A stretch of DNA of 64,000 nt from the human T2T-CHM13v2.0 reference genome, Homo sapiens: the NCBI RefSeq assembly GCF_009914755.1, contig NC_060933.1. One strand, written 5' to 3'. This document shows, in pieces, positions 35,318 to 62,255 of this stretch (position 1 is the stretch's first letter; each line of letters starts with the position of its first letter). Below the pieces are notes generated by a model. It did no database searches. It saw only the letters and a program-made list of their open reading frames with translations, and was not told the origin of the DNA. The translations under genes were made by a program, and so were the position numbers.

Positions 35318-35479
35318 TTAAGGTGACCTACAGAGCAGTTGGTTGTTAATCACTCCAGGAATTAAATTAAAAGAGCTTCTCTCTGGTTCTGTAACGGGGA
35401 CAGCAGTGCCAAAGAACTCTTTGCGGGATGCAGTAAACTTCTTTCCTTCCAGCCAATAGGTGACCATTTCCCTTTTTCC
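35318..35479 (-). pseudogene. GC pseudo-exon F (terminal): GKREMVTYWLEGKK...LLCRSP*
   Basis: Matches the GKGxMxTYWL motif; pyrimidine tract ttttcctccc but acceptor reads TG instead of AG; TAA at 35320-35318. Confidence 0.9.
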
Positions 35480-37368
35480 CAGGGAGGAAAACCACAAGTG
35501 TTAATTAGGGGAGAAATAGCCAATTCAGCCAGAAAGGGAGCCATCTGGAGATAGACCCATCAACTCATTGGACATGACAGGGCACATCCTCAAGTCTGCC
35601 CAGGGAAATCCTGGGGTCCCAAGGGACTGGCATCCCCAAGAGACAGCTCTTAAATTGGTTTCCCATTTGCTGCTGAGTGCACACCCTGCATTCAGGGCAG
35701 AGACCACTGCTTCATGGCACCTGGAGACACAGGCAGATTGAGTCAGTCACCGGCACACACTCACCTGTGCTGCCATGGCTAACAAATCCCACATGTACTG
35801 CCAAGCTGGGAGGGGAGACACAAACTTGGGCTCTGCAGCTACTTAGCCCTTCTGACAAAGCTAAAAGAGTATAATGACCCGGCAATTCTGAAGAATAACG
35901 TCTTTTCAGGACAGTGACTAAACAGGCATATCGCCACATGAAAAATTAGTGCCCTTCCAACAACTGTGGATCAGTCACAGCCTCCTCCCAGCACCGGGGT
36001 CAGAATTTCTGCCTCTCATTTACATGGAAACTGGAATTTGAAAGCTGTCACTCCAGATTCGCTCTGATACACTCTGCAAGAGAAAACATTACCTGCTTGT
36101 ATTTGCTGACCAGATTCAATCAAATTAATTGTAATTCATTTCAATAAACACTCATGCGGCCAGAGCCCTGTGCAAAACAAGTTTCAGAGTTAAGAGTGTG
36201 GTGCTTTTCCTGGGATTTTCTATGTAGGTTACCATGGTACTCTCTCTGAACAGATTTCATATTTAAAATATACAAAAATACCACAGAAACTATTTGGGCA
36301 ATGTCTGGAGGGAACCGCCCACAACTAATGCACATGCATCTCACATTATTTTATAGCTGGTTAGATTGGCTTGCAGCAGACCTGGTTTCTTTATTCTTTT
36401 TCTAAGTCACACAATTATTATTTCTGTGACTTTCCATCTGAGGAAACTGGAGCAGAGTGAAGGGGTCCAGTCACACCACAGCTAGTGTGAGCTGAGAAAG
36501 AATCAGGCTCTGGTGGCAGGAGAGCCAGGACTACCCCCCGTCCACTGCATCTGCCCCATGGATGGATCGAGCACAGGGGGGTCTGAAAATCTCTACCACC
36601 TTCAGCTCGCATTCGCTCCACCTTCTGTCCCAGGTGTAGTGAATTTCAATTACTTTCATATAGTTAATTTCATTGCCTTTTCTAGGGATTGATCCTCTTT
36701 TAAAATAATGACACCTTACAAGGGAAGCACCCCGGGAGTACCTCACTGGGAAGAGTTCATAAATGGATTTCTTCTATTATAGGAGGAATGTCAAGCACTG
36801 GGAGAAGATTGGGTTGAGTGGCTGGAAATGAGAAGGATGCTGAAATTAGGGGGAAGAATTTGGAAAGAGAATGTGGAAAAAAAACAGACATATTTTGCCT
36901 GTTGCACAGTTTTTCCAAGGATTGTTGTCCCTTCCTCTCTTTTCTCTTCCTCATCCCCAAGAAGGAACATCTTAAGAGATGTCCTATCTGCTCATAAAGG
37001 TCTGGGGATGAAAAAAATACATATTCTTTATGAGCCAAAACAAACATGTGCAATTCTTTAGCAGATGTATATCCAAACCTTACCTAGGCTAATAGTTTTT
37101 CATGGGTCTCCCTATGTTGCCCAGGCTGGTCTCAAACTCCTAGGCTCAAGCAATCCTCCCGCCTCAGCCTCCTGAGTAGTGAAAATCAAAGAATTTCCAG
37201 TTTTGTTTGGGACTTTTTCACCTGTAGCAGAGACATAATATGCAATGCTGCAAATTTTTATCACGAGTTTACTGGGCACAGTGACTCTTAGGACTTTAAT
37301 GGTGAGAGTTCCCTTGTAGTGCTTCTCTCCCATGCCTGCCTCCACACATACAGGTGGCCAATATATAC

Positions 37369-37460
37369 CTTGACTTGTAAATTCCTAAGACATACCAGTA
37401 TGTAGTCTCCAATTTGCTCCAAGATTTGATATGCACTTGAACTACACTGGATTTTCAGAG
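37369..37460 (-). pseudogene. GC pseudo-exon E (92 nt): (A)LKIQCSSSAYQILEQIGDYILVCLRNLQVK
   Basis: tttcctcttctgtcctccAG acceptor, AAG|GTATAT donor, open frame, same length as the homologous receptor-GC exon. Confidence 0.92.
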
Positions 37461-37960
37461 CTGGAGGACAGAAGAGGAAATAACACAGTTACATAAGTCC
37501 AGGCAACATCCCTTGCTTTTGCCTTGCCCTGAAAAACTGAGCAACTCTGAAACATGACCAAGAAAATTCAACTTCAAGAATCTCACCTAGCGAAGAGGTA
37601 TCCCAGAGCACATCCCAGCAAACATCCCCCAAGTGCTTCACATATAATAATAAGCTCTACCTGATTAGCTTTTCCCATCACAGTTACGTGGCAGGGGCTG
37701 CTGACCTGGGGAAAAAATCTTGTATATTCTAGAGAAAAGTTGGTGTCCACTCTTACTTTTGGACAGTTTTTCAGGGATATCTGCCCCTTCTTATCACATA
37801 CCTCCCTCAAGCAGCCAGCCTTTGGCTACCTGAGAGAAAAGCAGTCAGAGCAAGGTAAAGATATGAAGCCTCCTGAAAACTCTGCACTCTCATTCTAACC
37901 GTTTCTTAGAGCCAAGATGGTGGGTCTGCCTTGTCAGGTGCATCCCACATCATGATTTTT

Positions 37961-38252
37961 TTTTTTTCGAGACAGAGTCTTGCTCTGTTGCCAGGCTGGA
38001 GTGCAATGGCACAATCTCGGCTCACTGCAACCTCTGCCTCCCAGGTTCAAGCGATTCTCCTGCCTCAGCCTCCTGAGTAGCTGGGATTACAGACACGCAC
38101 CACCACACCTGGCTAATTTTTTTTTGTATTCTTTAGTAGAGATGGGGTTTCACCATGTTGACCAGGCTGGTCTCGAACTCCTGACCTTGTGATCCGCCCA
38201 CCTCGGCCTCCCAAAGTGCTGGGATTACAGGAGTAAGCCACCATACCTGGCC
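37961..38252 (-). mobile_element. AluSg/Sc-type
   Basis: Reverse dimer; 15-bp TSD CACATCATGATTTTT. Confidence 0.95.
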
Positions 38253-38512
38253 CACATCATGATTTTTGCCACAGCCATACACTCACCTGAGCTATTATTG
38301 AGTTAACATCTTTCTTTAAGTGGCCTCAATTAATCTTTTTAATAAAGAGTAGGAAAACTTAGAGAGTCAAAAGAAAGCATCTTACTACCAAAGTAATTCC
38401 CATTTTTCCCTGACAATCAGAAGCACTGAAAGAAAACAGAAAAACAAACAACTTTCTCATGATGTGACTTAATGGTAAGCTCTTGTCTCTTGACCATCTA
38501 ACATCACCTACT

Positions 38513-60496: not shown

Positions 60497-60636
60497 AAGC
60501 ATTTCCCATCGTCTCCATGTTGTAGACATCATAATGGTCTATAATTTTTCCCAAAGGTGGTATAGAGCTTGTCCAGGAAGTCCACTACCTGATACAGTGT
60601 GCTGATGTAGAAAGTCGAGGGAAGCCTACTATGTCA
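60497..60636 (-). pseudogene. GC pseudo-exon B (140 nt): (S)DIVGFPRLST/STLYQVVDFLDKLYTTFGK/IIDHYDVYNMETMGNA(Y)
   Basis: Matches SDIVGFT...QVV..LN.LY..FD.IID.YDVYKVETIGDAY; acceptor ttctacctccctgctccattccAG, donor T|GTGACT; one deletion and one insertion frameshift. Confidence 0.95.
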
Positions 60637-61115
60637 CTGGAATGGAGCAGGGAGGTAGAAAAAAAGTAAAATCAGGCAAAATAATTGGCAAGACCTAATT
60701 AAGCAATGGTACTTCCTTGTTTGGCACAATTTTTTAAAGCTCTCAGAAATCTGAGCCAGGGAGACCAGAAAGTCATGAGTCAGTCAATGGGTTTAGAAAA
60801 TATCCTTAGTTGTTTGTAACTTGTTTGGTTGGGATTTTGTTTGGGTTTGCTTTTGGTGTTTGGGTGTTGGTTTTGTTTGGGTTTTGCTTAGCTTCATTTT
60901 AGACAGTGCTGGCGTATTCCAAGCTAGGGAAGCTGGGTGCATGAGAGCTCTATCCGCTAACATCTGGACTCCCTCTGTTTCTGTTGATCAAGTGAGTGGG
61001 TTTATATAACAAGAGATTTACATGGATTGAGACAGCTGTGCAAACTCATTTAAAGAAGTCCCAGGTCGAGGTTAATTTGCTTCCCAGTTATCCTGATTCC
61101 TACCTACATTCTAGT

Positions 61116-61389
61116 TTTGTTTGTTTGTTTTTGTTTGTTTTGTTTTTTTGAGACAGTATCTCTCTCTGTCATCCCGGCTACAGTGCAGTGGCTCAACTGT
61201 AGCTCACCGTGACCTTGAACTCCTGGGCTCAAGTGATCTTCCCACCTCAGCCTCTTGAGTAGATAGGACTACAGGCACTTGCCACCCTTGGCCATCTAAT
61301 GTTTTGTATTTTTTGTAGAGACAGGTTCTCTCTGTTTCTCTGGCTGGTATTAAACTCCTAGTTTCAAGTGATCCTCCCACCACAGCCTT
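61116..61389 (-). mobile_element. AluJ (5' end missing)
   Basis: Reverse Alu with (GTTT)n tail. Confidence 0.85.
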
Positions 61390-62169
61390 CTAGATCTTTT
61401 ATTTTTTGGTTGTTAGTGATGCTTTCATATCTTCAGATAGATTTCTCTGAGGTTATACTAGCCTCTGCTGGAGAGAGGTCTTTTGTCTTTTTCCTCCCAG
61501 GAAGGAGTCTCTATCAGTGACATGGCATGGCTTTAAACTCTAAAGAGCCGGTCTTTAAGCTCTATGCCTCAGTTTATCCATCTGTAAAACATGGACGCTC
61601 TCTTGACCCCCAGTTAGAATCTGACTGCTTTGAGTAACTGCTGTAAACTGCAAATCATTTGCAAGGCTTCCACCTCACAGCTTACAACTTCAATTTATGG
61701 GTTTTTCTCAGAAATTTCTAAACTTTCCCCCAGGCAAGGCAACCCTGGTTCTGCCTCATCACAGATGGGGTCATTGTATGTTTTGTTATGGCAGGGAAGA
61801 ACTATATGGCTTATTTACTTCAGATTAAAAAAAAAATTCCCTGAAATGAAGTATAAGCATTCTAAAGCAATTTCCTGCTGTTTTTGCTAAGCTGCATGCC
61901 TTTTAGCTCTAAGAAATTGATTTAAGTTAAAAAAAAAATAAGGTGGTGGGGTGGAGGGACTTAACCAAATCACACCAACGTATTTTATTAACAACATGCC
62001 TAAGTGGTAAGCTTGCTGCCACTTGATTCAAATGCCTGCAGTTTCTTCTTTTGCAGATATTATTTACTCTCCACCTGCTGCCAGTCACGCACAAATTGTA
62101 TAACACTGTAGACTGCTCCAACTCTCTGCCTTTTAAGCTGAAATCCCAATGCCAGTCATGTTAATTTAC

Positions 62170-62255
62170 CTGAAAAGATGGACACACTCAGGTATCTCTG
62201 AGCCAGGCAGGTTGGCCTTGTCTTAGGTCATCAACAACTTGTTTCAGTAGCGTGC
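62170..62255 (-). pseudogene. GC pseudo-exon A (86 nt): (S)TLLKQVVDDLRQGQPA/AQRYLSVSIF/(S)
   Basis: Matches the helical-domain/cyclase start MLP..VA..L..G....A..Y..VTIFFS; donor CAG|GTAAAT; weak acceptor; two inferred 1-nt deletions. Confidence 0.88.

What the first reader, a model, noticed from the sequence alone, without database searches (positions are those of the whole stretch)
35318..62255. Hidden, intron-containing fossil of a guanylyl cyclase gene downstream of TMEM215
Seen: six minus-strand exons over 27 kb read in order TLLKQVVDDLRQG..SIF(S) / DIVGF..QVVDFLDKLYTTF..IIDHYDVYNMETMGNA(Y) / MVAS..HAREIANMALDL..GIHS(G) / VTGVVGTKMP*CCLLGDAVNTAS(R)ME.. / LKIQCSS..LQVK / GKREMVTYWLEG..stop. 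Split codons join across the introns (AG|T Ser, T|AT Tyr, G| Gly, G|CT Ala, phase 0). Established: this is the full class III nucleotide-cyclase fold as found in receptor guanylyl cyclases. The human GC pseudogenes I know (GUCY2EP, GUCY2GP, GUCY1B2) lie on other chromosomes. Inference: this is a unitary pseudogene of a lost cGMP-signalling enzyme. The ORF track shows only fragments of two exons.
Basis: partly seen in the sequence, partly recalled or inferred. Interest (0 to 1): 0.95.

Follow-up and report, generated by a model that had tools for sequence, protein, structure and literature searches.

The report
Fossil of a lost guanylyl cyclase receptor
Human chromosome 9 carries the decayed but nearly complete remains of a cGMP-making cell-surface receptor gene that fish, birds, reptiles, platypus and marsupials still have intact, that appears to be missing from placental mammals, and that belongs to none of the seven receptor types described so far.

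Summary

They are the last six exons of a much larger fossil. Twenty colinear exon relics run from 35,321 to about 143,613 in window-extended coordinates, roughly 108 kb. They cover ectodomain, membrane span, kinase-homology domain, coiled coil and cyclase domain.

Against the opossum orthologue, 764 codons align at 64% identity, with 12 in-frame stops and at least 10 frameshifts. Exon scores are 60-203, against a maximum of 47 in 252 random windows.

The parent is not one of the known human cyclases. A tree puts the fossil inside a separate, deeply conserved receptor family found from molluscs to marsupials, with 100/99 support for its vertebrate clade. That family has a short ectodomain of about 210 residues, with no ANF-receptor domain and no Pfam match.

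No other human locus matches that ectodomain. No named placental protein appears among 240 listed relatives.

Verdict: a true unitary pseudogene, absent from the RefSeq table supplied with the finding. I found nothing in print on it or on its family. GENCODE and synteny could not be checked.

The parts
35321..35479 (-). E21, last coding exon (GKREMVTYWLEGKK...IPGVI..SP). The stop codon lies at 35318-35320.
   Evidence: opossum P0177 residues 795-846, 29 of 52 identical, score 134, no stop or frameshift. The C-terminal tail motif F-N-L-I-P-G-V is shared with orthologues. The acceptor reads CTG, not CAG.
37369..37461 (-). E20, cyclase domain exon (ALKIQCSSSAYQILEQIGDYILVCLRNLQVK)
   Evidence: P0177 residues 764-794, 26 of 31 identical (84%), score 129. 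Acceptor CAG and donor GTATAT.
43178..43249 (-). E19, cyclase domain exon with an in-frame TGA (VTGVVGTKMP*CCLLGDAVVAKSK)
   Evidence: P0177 residues 734-757, 15 of 24 identical, 1 stop, score 70. The orthologues' N-T-A-S-R motif reads V-A-K-S-K here. Donor GTAAGT further 3'.
54834..54986 (-). E18, cyclase domain exon, the longest unbroken piece (MVASRVHKAKGILHAREIANMALDLVPVQKTFEIPHKSNVHPKICAGIHSG)
   Evidence: P0177 residues 681-731, 34 of 51 identical, score 153. PF00211 at 19.1 bits, E 0.001, below the cut-off. Human paralogues are 37-47% identical. Family members are 60-69% identical.
60498..60638 (-). E17, cyclase domain exon with two frameshifts (SDIVGF..LYQVVDFLDKLYTTF..IIDHYDVYNMETMGNA)
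   Evidence: P0177 residues 633-679, 34 of 46 identical, 2 frameshifts, score 152. The orthologues' T-I-G-D-A reads T-M-G-N-A here.
62174..62277 (-). E16, end of the coiled coil and start of the cyclase domain (..LLKQVVDDLRQGQPA / AQRYLSVSIF)
   Evidence: P0177 residues 598-631, 19 of 33 identical, 1 frameshift counted and one more 1-base loss read by eye at the 3' end, score 74. Donor GTAAAT.
62278..64000 (-). The in-window part of the old intron between E15 and E16. The fossil continues beyond the window's high end with 14 more exon relics, E15 up to E2, at window-extended coordinates 70,595-143,613 (chr9 position minus 32,798,000). They are listed in the full report.
   Evidence: E15 lies at 70,595-70,689 and E2 at 143,489-143,613, all on the minus strand and colinear with P0177 residues 41-604. 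No exon match lies in 62,278-64,000.

Best explanation
This is the dead remnant (a unitary pseudogene) of a single-pass receptor guanylyl cyclase. The six exons in the window are its last six.

Extent. The whole fossil has at least 20 recognisable exons over about 108 kb on the minus strand, roughly chr9:32,833,300-32,941,600. It lies tail-to-tail with TMEM215.

The ancestral protein (shown by alignment to intact orthologues). It had a signal peptide, an ectodomain of about 180 residues, a Cys-rich stalk, one membrane helix, a kinase-homology domain, a coiled coil and a class III cyclase domain.

How it worked (inferred from family knowledge). It acted as a homodimer that turned an extracellular signal into cGMP, as GC-A does.

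State in humans (shown). The gene cannot make protein. It has 12 in-frame stops, at least 10 frameshifts, no recognisable first exon, and altered residues in conserved cyclase motifs.

The parent family (shown). It is distinct from GC-A to GC-G and is intact from molluscs to marsupials.

The loss (inferred). It was lost in the placental lineage, probably on or near the placental stem.
For: - Peptide strings are at the stated places; the frames were read directly.
- The third exon found 73 proteins at E<=0.001 in 1.84 billion. The best relatives other than the window's own ORF (P0001) were 60-69% identical. Six human paralogues were 37-47% identical.
- tblastn and a frameshift-aware alignment of opossum P0177 give 20 colinear minus-strand exons. 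764 of 847 codons align, 489 are identical (64.0%), with 12 stops and 10 frameshifts.
- Exon scores are 60-203, against a maximum of 47 in 252 random windows.
- Orthologues carry PF07714, PF07701 and PF00211 and no ectodomain Pfam family.
- In the whole-genome search with P0177, 4 of 54 matches lie in this locus. One of them is the only listed match to the ectodomain.
- In the tree, the fossil sits inside the vertebrate clade of the family (100/99). Human NPR1/NPR2 (99/93) and GUCY2C/D/EP/F/GP (99/98) form other clades. The fossil's branch is 0.53, against 0.02-0.06 for living amniote orthologues.
- None of the named proteins among the best 120 full-length and best 120 short relatives of the opossum protein is from a placental mammal. 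Three marsupials and the platypus are in the first list and the tammar wallaby in the second.
Against: - Synteny with intact orthologues was not testable, so orthology rests on sequence and the tree alone.
- The fossil's exact place within amniotes is unresolved: that fork has 84/76 support and is drawn open, and the tool flags the fossil as a long branch.
- The whole-genome search used a stricter first look, so its counts are a floor.
- Exon 1 and residues 269-318 were not found.
- Pfam by itself does not reach its cut-off on any single exon.
- I could not check GENCODE, HGNC or the supplements of gene-loss papers for an earlier record.
Confidence: 0.93

Rival explanations
1. It is a decayed duplicate of one of the known human receptor cyclase genes, for example NPR2, which lies about 3 Mb away on the same chromosome arm. 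On this reading it is not a unitary pseudogene.
For: NPR2 cyclase exons lie at chr9:35.83 Mb on the same arm. The intracellular part of the family is most similar to NPR1 among solved structures, E 1.3e-147 over residues 248-821.
Against: - The third exon is 37% identical to NPR2 and 39% to NPR1, but 67% to the opossum orthologue.
- The tree puts the fossil in another clade with 100/99 support.
- Five ectodomain and stalk exons match a non-ANF ectodomain that NPR1/NPR2 do not have, and that matched nowhere else in the listed whole-genome results.
Confidence: 0.01
2. The matches are chance similarities in non-coding DNA and there is no gene relic.
For: Single exons are short. Six of the 7 fragments gave no cyclase match in Pfam and the seventh fell below the cut-off. 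The locus was absent from the whole-genome PF00211 list.
Against: Twenty exons lie in the same order and on the same strand as in the protein. Each scores 60-203, against a null maximum of 47 in 252 windows. tblastn E-values reach 6e-18. Polypyrimidine-AG and GT signals flank many of them.
Confidence: 0.005
3. The locus is a true fossil, but both it and its parent family are already recorded (a GENCODE unitary pseudogene, a named gene family, or a gene-loss catalogue). Only the RefSeq table lacks it.
For: - Orthologues are in public databases, though under automatic names such as 'atrial natriuretic peptide receptor 1-like'.
- NCBI calls the medaka one 'membrane guanylyl cyclase', which hints at an older cDNA record.
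- Genome-wide catalogues of genes lost in early mammals exist (PMC3296468 and PMC10195156, seen in the listing). I could not open their supplements.
Against: - Nine full-text searches found no paper naming the locus or the family.
- The main text of PMC3296468 holds none of the words guanyl, natriuretic, cyclase, TMEM215 or APTX.
- The abstract of a 2023 paper on visual guanylyl cyclases still counts seven membrane cyclase subtypes (PMC10061024).
- The RefSeq table supplied with the finding has no gene row between 7,402 and 144,635 and names BOLA3P4 as the nearest gene after the window.
Confidence: 0.3
4. The gene was not lost once on the placental stem. It was lost several times, and some placental orders still keep it intact.
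For: Only protein databases were searched, not placental genomes. Unnamed short ORFs P0003 and P0008 resemble the human relic and keep that exon open.
Against: - No named placental protein appears among 240 listed relatives, although an intact placental orthologue should rank near the top of the opossum search. Koala is 91% identical and platypus 84%.
- P0003 and P0008 share derived residues with the human relic (KAK/KAS for KMN, FEI for FKI, KICAG for MIRAG). That fits changes already present in a common ancestor.
- The fossil's branch is about ten times that of living amniote orthologues.
Confidence: 0.12

Closest known systems
GUCY2EP and GUCY2GP, the human unitary pseudogenes of receptor cyclases GC-D and GC-G (names and chromosome assignments recalled; their loci appear as PF00211 matches at chr11:76.6 Mb and chr10:113.2 Mb)
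   Same: Intron-containing relics of receptor guanylyl cyclases that are intact in other mammals or vertebrates. They carry stops inside cyclase exons.
   Different: - Their parents are classical GC-D and GC-G with ANF-type ectodomains and are still intact in rodents (recalled).
- This fossil's parent is another family, missing from all named placental entries listed.
- This fossil is far more decayed. The other two still reach the Pfam cut-off exon by exon, and this one does not.
- In the tree they fall in the GUCY2 clade, not with the fossil.
Natriuretic peptide receptors NPR1/GC-A and NPR2/GC-B
   Same: The same intracellular layout: kinase-homology domain, coiled coil and cyclase. They are the nearest solved structure (NPR1, E 1.3e-147, residues 248-821 of the koala orthologue) and the nearest human clade in the tree. 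Databases name the family after them.
   Different: The family has no ANF_receptor domain, and the NPR1 match stops at the membrane. Its ectodomain is about 210 residues rather than about 440 (the latter recalled). It forms a separate clade with 90/91 support.
The parent family itself: about 850-residue proteins auto-named 'atrial natriuretic peptide receptor 1-like/2-like' or 'Guanylate cyclase'. Examples are opossum F6Y3Q3 (P0177), koala (P0193), platypus (P0099), Xenopus tropicalis (P0159), medaka 'membrane guanylyl cyclase' (P0091), amphioxus (P0085), starfish (P0037) and abalone (P0140).
   Same: The fossil aligns to these over all domains at 64% identity to opossum. It shares the family-only ectodomain and the C-terminal tail motif.
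   Different: They are intact. The human copy has 12 stops, at least 10 frameshifts and no first exon.

Membership tests
Receptor (membrane) guanylyl cyclase, class III cyclase domain PF00211 | A match to the cyclase catalytic domain | tested here: met
   No single exon reaches the cut-off: the best is 19.1 bits against 21.9. But the six exons align over residues 598-846 of an orthologue whose own PF00211 score is 224.8 bits, and the joined read-through groups with cyclases in the tree.
Receptor (membrane) guanylyl cyclase, class III cyclase domain PF00211 | Domain order: ectodomain, one membrane helix, kinase-homology domain, coiled coil, cyclase | tested here: met
   Exon relics E2-E21 cover residues 41-846 of P0177 in order. 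The domains of the orthologues come from Pfam.
Receptor (membrane) guanylyl cyclase, class III cyclase domain PF00211 | Intact catalytic motifs (the roles of metal-binding Asp, and of Asn and Arg in the transition state, are recalled and were not tested) | tested here: not met
   T-I-G-D-A reads T-M-G-N-A. M-P-R-Y-C reads M-P-stop-C-C. N-T-A-S-R reads V-A-K-S-K. This is the expected state of a dead copy. It bears on activity, not on ancestry.
Unitary pseudogene | Disabling mutations across the coding sequence | tested here: met
   12 in-frame stops and 10 frameshifts in 764 aligned codons, with more frameshifts read by eye at junctions. Exon 1 was not found.
Unitary pseudogene | No functional parent or paralogue of the same family in the same genome | tested here: met
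   In the whole-genome search with P0177, the only listed ectodomain match is at this locus, and the other cyclase loci are the known genes at lower identity (that search's counts are a floor). The tree separates the paralogues.
Unitary pseudogene | Intact orthologues in other lineages | tested here: met
   Full-length proteins from marsupials, platypus, birds, reptiles, amphibians, fishes, amphioxus, echinoderms and molluscs.
Unitary pseudogene | It lies at the position of the orthologous gene (conserved synteny) | not testable with these tools
   No vertebrate genome other than the window's own is held, and protein hits come without genomic context.
Natriuretic peptide receptor (as the automatic names say) | An ANF_receptor (PF01094) ligand-binding ectodomain | tested here: not met
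   No PF01094 in 4 orthologues scanned: P0037, P0026 and P0017 at E<=0.01, and P0193 at E<=10. None appears in the precomputed domains of the 120 listed relatives. The NPR1 structure match begins at residue 248.
Copper-binding beta-sandwich proteins (LPMO AA10, PmoD, X325), considered for the ectodomain | A shared fold and an N-terminal histidine brace | tested here: inconclusive
   Weak rows only. Foldseek gives E 1.2e-3, TM 0.27-0.29 for 4oy7. VIA-align gives Z 6.1-6.3 for 5fjq, 6ibh and 5wsz, below generic sandwiches at Z 8.2. From I read the mature N-terminus as W-H-D-L, which puts His second, not first. Model residues 1-6 have pLDDT under 50.

The most novel reading that the evidence does not exclude
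The fossil marks an eighth vertebrate membrane guanylyl cyclase. It would be a bilaterian-wide, strongly conserved receptor: opossum is 84% identical to platypus, 82% to turtle and about 72% to sharks. It has never been functionally characterised.

Its ectodomain would be a new kind of sensor: a beta-sandwich with invariant Cys, His and Trp residues and a Cys-rich stalk. The gene would have been lost once on the placental stem, implying that a whole cGMP input pathway (receptor, and perhaps its unknown ligand) was discarded when placental mammals arose.
Probability: 0.45. Interest if true: 0.75.

Novelty: new variant of a known kind. Interest (0 to 1): 0.62.

Why it matters
The abstract of a 2023 paper on visual guanylyl cyclases counts seven membrane guanylyl cyclase subtypes, GC-A to GC-G (PMC10061024). 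This fossil points to one more. That family is conserved from molluscs to marsupials, and its ectodomain shares no detectable sequence similarity with any known ligand-binding domain.

The family is hidden in databases under misleading 'natriuretic peptide receptor-like' names. If the loss is confirmed as placental-wide, it is a clean, datable loss of a signalling receptor at the origin of placental mammals. It would also make the function of the living orthologues (fish, frog, chicken, opossum) directly testable.

For genome annotation, it is a 108-kb, 20-exon unitary pseudogene missing from the RefSeq table supplied. It would fill much of the apparently gene-free interval that table shows between TMEM215 and BOLA3P4.

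Tried and rejected
- Pfam on single exons. Only 1 of 7 fragments hit PF00211, and below the cut-off. A first try failed because one fragment was under 20 residues.
- Whole-genome PF00211 scan. It listed 74 matches and missed the locus.
- First coding exon. Not found in the 40 kb upstream. Minus-strand best scores of 41-46 equal the plus-strand control of 38-46. 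The E1 candidate at 143,655-143,753 scored 27, inside the null range, and was dropped.
- Residues 269-318 (juxtamembrane) found no relic.
- ESM Atlas search with the ectodomain gave no usable hit.
- Fold searches of the ectodomain model. Foldseek against PDB gave no match at E<=0.001. VIA-align gave a best Z of 8.2 to generic beta-sandwiches (SoxZ, macroglobulin domain, a phage tail protein). The tool says Z 7-8 is typical for models with no true match. No family assignment was made.
- The LPMO or copper idea is kept only as a weak lead.
- Earlier findings of this scan were not open.
- Literature. Nine searches found nothing on the locus or the family, and one search was rejected for a term that was too long. 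Passages read in four papers were not relevant to this family.
The gene lists of PMC3296468 and PMC10195156 may bear on the novelty claim and were not seen.
- Duplicate-of-NPR2 and chance readings were rejected (see rivals).
- No complex prediction was run.

Full report
**The observation**

The window is human T2T chr9:32,798,001-32,862,000. The ninth (CCLLGDAVNTAS) is not in the DNA, which reads CCLLGDAVVAKSKAY.

Reading the DNA with all three frames shows several breaks:
- a TGA inside exon 4 (MP*CC);
- two frame changes inside exon 2;
- a frame change in exon 1.

Canonical donors follow exons 1, 3, 4 and 5 (GTAAAT, GTAAGA, GTAAGT, GTATAT). The acceptors of exons 3 and 6 are degenerate (CAA and CTG).

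**Standard domain scans do not see the locus**

Pfam on seven single fragments gave one PF00211 hit, at 19.1 bits and E 0.001, under the 21.9-bit cut-off. A six-frame PF00211 scan of the whole genome listed 74 matches. By chromosome position (my attribution, recalled) they are the known adenylyl and guanylyl cyclase genes, including GUCY2EP, GUCY2GP and GUCY1B2. None lay at this locus.

**It is not a copy of a known human cyclase**

I fetched the cyclase-domain regions of seven human receptor cyclase loci. Gene names were assigned by position, recalled. Identity to the longest unbroken exon (51 codons) was as follows:

| Human paralogue | Identity |
|---|---|
| GUCY2F | 47% |
| GUCY2D | 45% |
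| GUCY2C | 43% |
| GUCY2EP | 43% |
| NPR1 | 39% |
| NPR2 | 37% |

The other exons also matched the corresponding paralogue exons, in the same order, at weak E-values.

**The true relatives**

An exhaustive phmmer search of 1.84 billion representative proteins with that exon gave 73 hits at E<=0.001. After the window's own ORF came proteins 60-69% identical, well above any human paralogue.

The longer ones (P0026, P0037, P0017, P0015, P0041) share one layout:
- a signal peptide;
- an ectodomain of about 210 residues beginning W-H-D-L-D-N;
- a membrane helix;
- a kinase-homology domain (PF07714);
- a coiled coil (PF07701);
- a cyclase domain (PF00211).

None has an ANF_receptor domain.

Name-bearing searches show this is a large family auto-named 'atrial natriuretic peptide receptor 1-like/2-like' or 'Guanylate cyclase'. 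It occurs in echinoderms, a hemichordate, amphioxus, molluscs, sharks and rays, ray-finned fishes (medaka 'membrane guanylyl cyclase'), amphibians, reptiles, birds, platypus and marsupials.

**The fossil is a whole gene**

I fetched 120 kb beyond the window's high end and aligned family proteins to window plus flank. tblastn with the opossum protein P0177 (847 aa) gave colinear minus-strand matches from residue 41 to residue 838, with E-values down to 6e-18.

A frameshift-aware alignment of my own defined 20 exon relics, E2-E21, from window-extended coordinate 143,613 down to 35,321:
- 764 codons aligned, 489 identical (64.0%);
- 12 in-frame stops and 10 frameshifts;
- the six in-window exons (E16-E21) account for 237 codons, 157 identical, 1 stop and 3 frameshifts, and reading the junctions by eye adds at least three more small deletions.

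The 14 relics outside the window are listed below. Coordinates are window-extended (chr9 position minus 32,798,000), all are on the minus strand, and all figures come.

| Exon | Coordinates | P0177 residues | Identical/aligned | Stops | Frameshifts | Score | Part of the protein |
|---|---|---|---|---|---|---|---|
| E2 | 143,489-143,613 | 41-82 | 26/41 | 0 | 1 | 128 | ectodomain |
| E3 | 134,433-134,581 | 84-131 | 29/48 | 1 | 1 | 166 | ectodomain |
| E4 | 116,722-116,826 | 128-162 | 22/35 | 3 | 0 | 102 | ectodomain |
| E5 | 105,622-105,719 | 162-194 | 25/32 | 1 | 1 | 101 | ectodomain |
| E6 | 102,276-102,423 | 195-244 | 22/49 | 0 | 1 | 116 | Cys-rich stalk and membrane helix |
| E7 | 99,155-99,225 | 245-268 | 17/23 | 1 | 1 | 82 | juxtamembrane |
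| E8 | 87,780-87,860 | 319-345 | 16/27 | 0 | 0 | 80 | kinase-homology domain |
| E9 | 83,329-83,472 | 345-392 | 34/48 | 0 | 0 | 203 | kinase-homology domain |
| E10 | 81,819-81,953 | 391-439 | 28/45 | 2 | 0 | 114 | kinase-homology domain |
| E11 | 80,229-80,369 | 434-480 | 24/47 | 2 | 0 | 107 | kinase-homology domain |
| E12 | 76,007-76,060 | 479-496 | 12/18 | 0 | 0 | 60 | kinase-homology domain |
| E13 | 72,755-72,883 | 494-536 | 26/42 | 1 | 0 | 124 | kinase-homology domain |
| E14 | 70,966-71,093 | 531-573 | 27/41 | 0 | 1 | 118 | kinase-homology domain |
| E15 | 70,595-70,689 | 573-604 | 24/31 | 0 | 1 | 112 | coiled coil |

Each exon scored 60-203. The same protein pieces against 252 random same-size windows of the 184-kb region, on both strands, scored at most 47 (mean 24.5, SD 5.6).

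Two parts are missing. A candidate first exon scored 27, inside the null range, and was dropped. A dedicated search of the next 40 kb gave minus-strand scores (41-46) no better than the plus-strand control (38-46). Residues 269-318 also have no relic.

**It is unitary**

Searching the whole human genome in six frames with P0177 gave 54 listed matches. Four lie in this locus:

| Exon | Identity | E-value |
|---|---|---|
| E9 | 71% | 1.1e-15 |
| E3 | 54% | 1.9e-10 |
| E18 | 60% | 2.6e-9 |
| E21 | 54% | 7.8e-6 |

E3 is the only listed match to any residue below 300, that is, to the family's own ectodomain. The tool used a stricter first look, so these counts are a floor.

I also built a maximum-likelihood tree of the cyclase region with 28 rows. 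The fossil was read through with X at every break. The seven human paralogues were pieced from tblastn hits covering 113-204 of 217 positions.
- The fossil sits inside the vertebrate clade of the family (100/99 support).
- The family as a whole has 90/91 support.
- Human NPR1/NPR2 (99/93) and GUCY2C/D/EP/F/GP (99/98) are elsewhere.
- The fossil's position among amniotes is unresolved (84/76, drawn open), and the tool flags it as a long branch.
- Its terminal branch is 0.53 changes per site, against 0.02-0.06 for living amniote orthologues. That is about ten times longer, as expected after long neutral decay.

**Who lost it**

Among the 120 best full-length relatives of the opossum protein there are three marsupials (opossum, koala 91%, Gracilinanus), platypus (84%), then turtles, crocodilians, birds, squamates, amphibians and fishes down to 68% identity. 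None is a placental mammal.

Among the 120 best shorter relatives, the named ones are again all non-placental and include the tammar wallaby. Many others are unnamed and cannot be judged.

An intact placental orthologue would be expected near the top of the first list. I therefore infer loss in the placental lineage. The long fossil branch suggests an early loss.

Two unnamed ORFs (P0003, P0008) resemble the human relic of E18. They share derived residues with it (KAK/KAS for KMN, FEI for FKI, KICAG for MIRAG) and, like it, read on past the exon end. They are probably the same fossil in other placentals. If so, these changes predate their divergence. The species are unknown to me, and I did not try to trace them.

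**What the ancestral protein was and how it worked**

Shown:
- The domain order is that of receptor guanylyl cyclases.
- The nearest solved structure is NPR1/GC-A, matching residues 248-821 only (E 1.3e-147), then GC-C.
- The ectodomain has no Pfam match even at E<=10.
- The ectodomain is strongly conserved from molluscs to mammals, with near-invariant Cys, His and Trp residues and an invariant Cys-rich stalk.

An AlphaFold2 model of the koala ectodomain was built with a 49-row alignment. It reached mean pLDDT 82.5 and pTM 0.73. It is a beta-sandwich with two inserted helices and a poorly ordered stalk.

Fold searches gave only generic sandwiches. Foldseek found nothing at E<=0.001, and VIA-align's best Z was 8.2, in the range the tool calls common for models without a true relative. 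Copper-binding sandwiches (LPMO AA10, PmoD, X325) recur, but weakly. I make no fold-family claim.

Inferred from knowledge of receptor cyclases, not tested: the protein was a homodimer in which an extracellular event is passed through the kinase-homology domain and coiled coil to a homodimeric cyclase that makes cGMP. The orthologues keep the conserved motifs F-S-D-I-V-G-F, V-E-T-I-G-D-A, M-P-R-Y-C-L-F-G-D-T-V-N-T-A-S-R. In the human relic three of these are altered: G-D-A to G-N-A, R to stop, and N-T-A-S-R to V-A-K-S-K. The catalytic roles of these residues are recalled.

**Comparison with what is known**

The closest known things of the same kind are GUCY2EP and GUCY2GP, the human relics of GC-D and GC-G. 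Those belong to classical subtypes and are much less decayed, since they still pass the Pfam cut-off exon by exon.

The parent family is not a natriuretic peptide receptor despite its database names. The defining ANF-type ectodomain is absent, and the tree places it apart.

**Is it in print?**

Nine full-text searches found no paper on the locus or the family.
- Passages of PMC6170504 and PMC7674705 deal with the visual and olfactory cyclases only.
- The abstract of PMC10061024 (2023) states that seven membrane cyclase subtypes have been characterised.
- The main text of PMC3296468, a catalogue of genes lost in early mammals, contains none of the words guanyl, natriuretic, cyclase, TMEM215 or APTX.
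- Its supplements, and those of PMC10195156 (seen only in the listing), could not be opened and may list the gene.

The RefSeq table supplied with the finding shows no gene row between TMEM215 (ends 7,402) and BOLA3P4 (144,635). GENCODE, Ensembl and HGNC could not be consulted.

**Verdict**

The finding is larger than reported: a 20-exon, roughly 108-kb unitary pseudogene of a receptor guanylyl cyclase family outside GC-A to GC-G. The gene is dead in humans. Its main value is as a pointer to an uncharacterised, ancient receptor and to a loss event in placental ancestry. Synteny and the timing of the loss remain to be tested.

Noticed in passing
window 54315-54826: A minisatellite of 20 copies of a 26-base unit (90% matches; also seen as a 128-base period). 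It begins 8 bases 3' of exon relic E18, inside the old intron. It produces long artificial open frames on the plus strand.
   Followed up: partly
proteins P0003 and P0008 (unnamed representative library): Two short ORFs, 69% and 65% identical to the human E18 relic in the alignment. They share derived residues with it that intact orthologues lack, and they read past the exon end as the human copy does. They are probably the same fossil in other placental mammals.
   Followed up: partly
orthologue proteins, first residues after the signal peptide: In the 17 orthologues printed, from scallop to koala, the sequence after the signal-peptide-like leader begins with Trp-His. It is W-H-D-L in most, W-H-K-L in amphioxus and W-H-S-F in scallop. 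A Cys-Trp pair follows about ten residues later. An N-terminus conserved this strictly suggests it takes part in ligand or metal binding. The model is unreliable there (pLDDT under 50).
   Followed up: no
beyond the window: window-extended 143,489-144,635 (locus L026): The most 5' recognisable relic (E2) ends about 1 kb from the processed pseudogene BOLA3P4 listed in the supplied table (144,635-145,034, plus strand). Whether that insertion or another event removed the first exon and promoter is unknown.
   Followed up: no
protein P0048 (unnamed, 562 aa): A family member with a repetitive Pro/Ala/Gln-rich N-terminus, missing segments and only 48% identity to the nearest named member. It looks like a mis-predicted or decaying copy in some unnamed species.
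   Followed up: no
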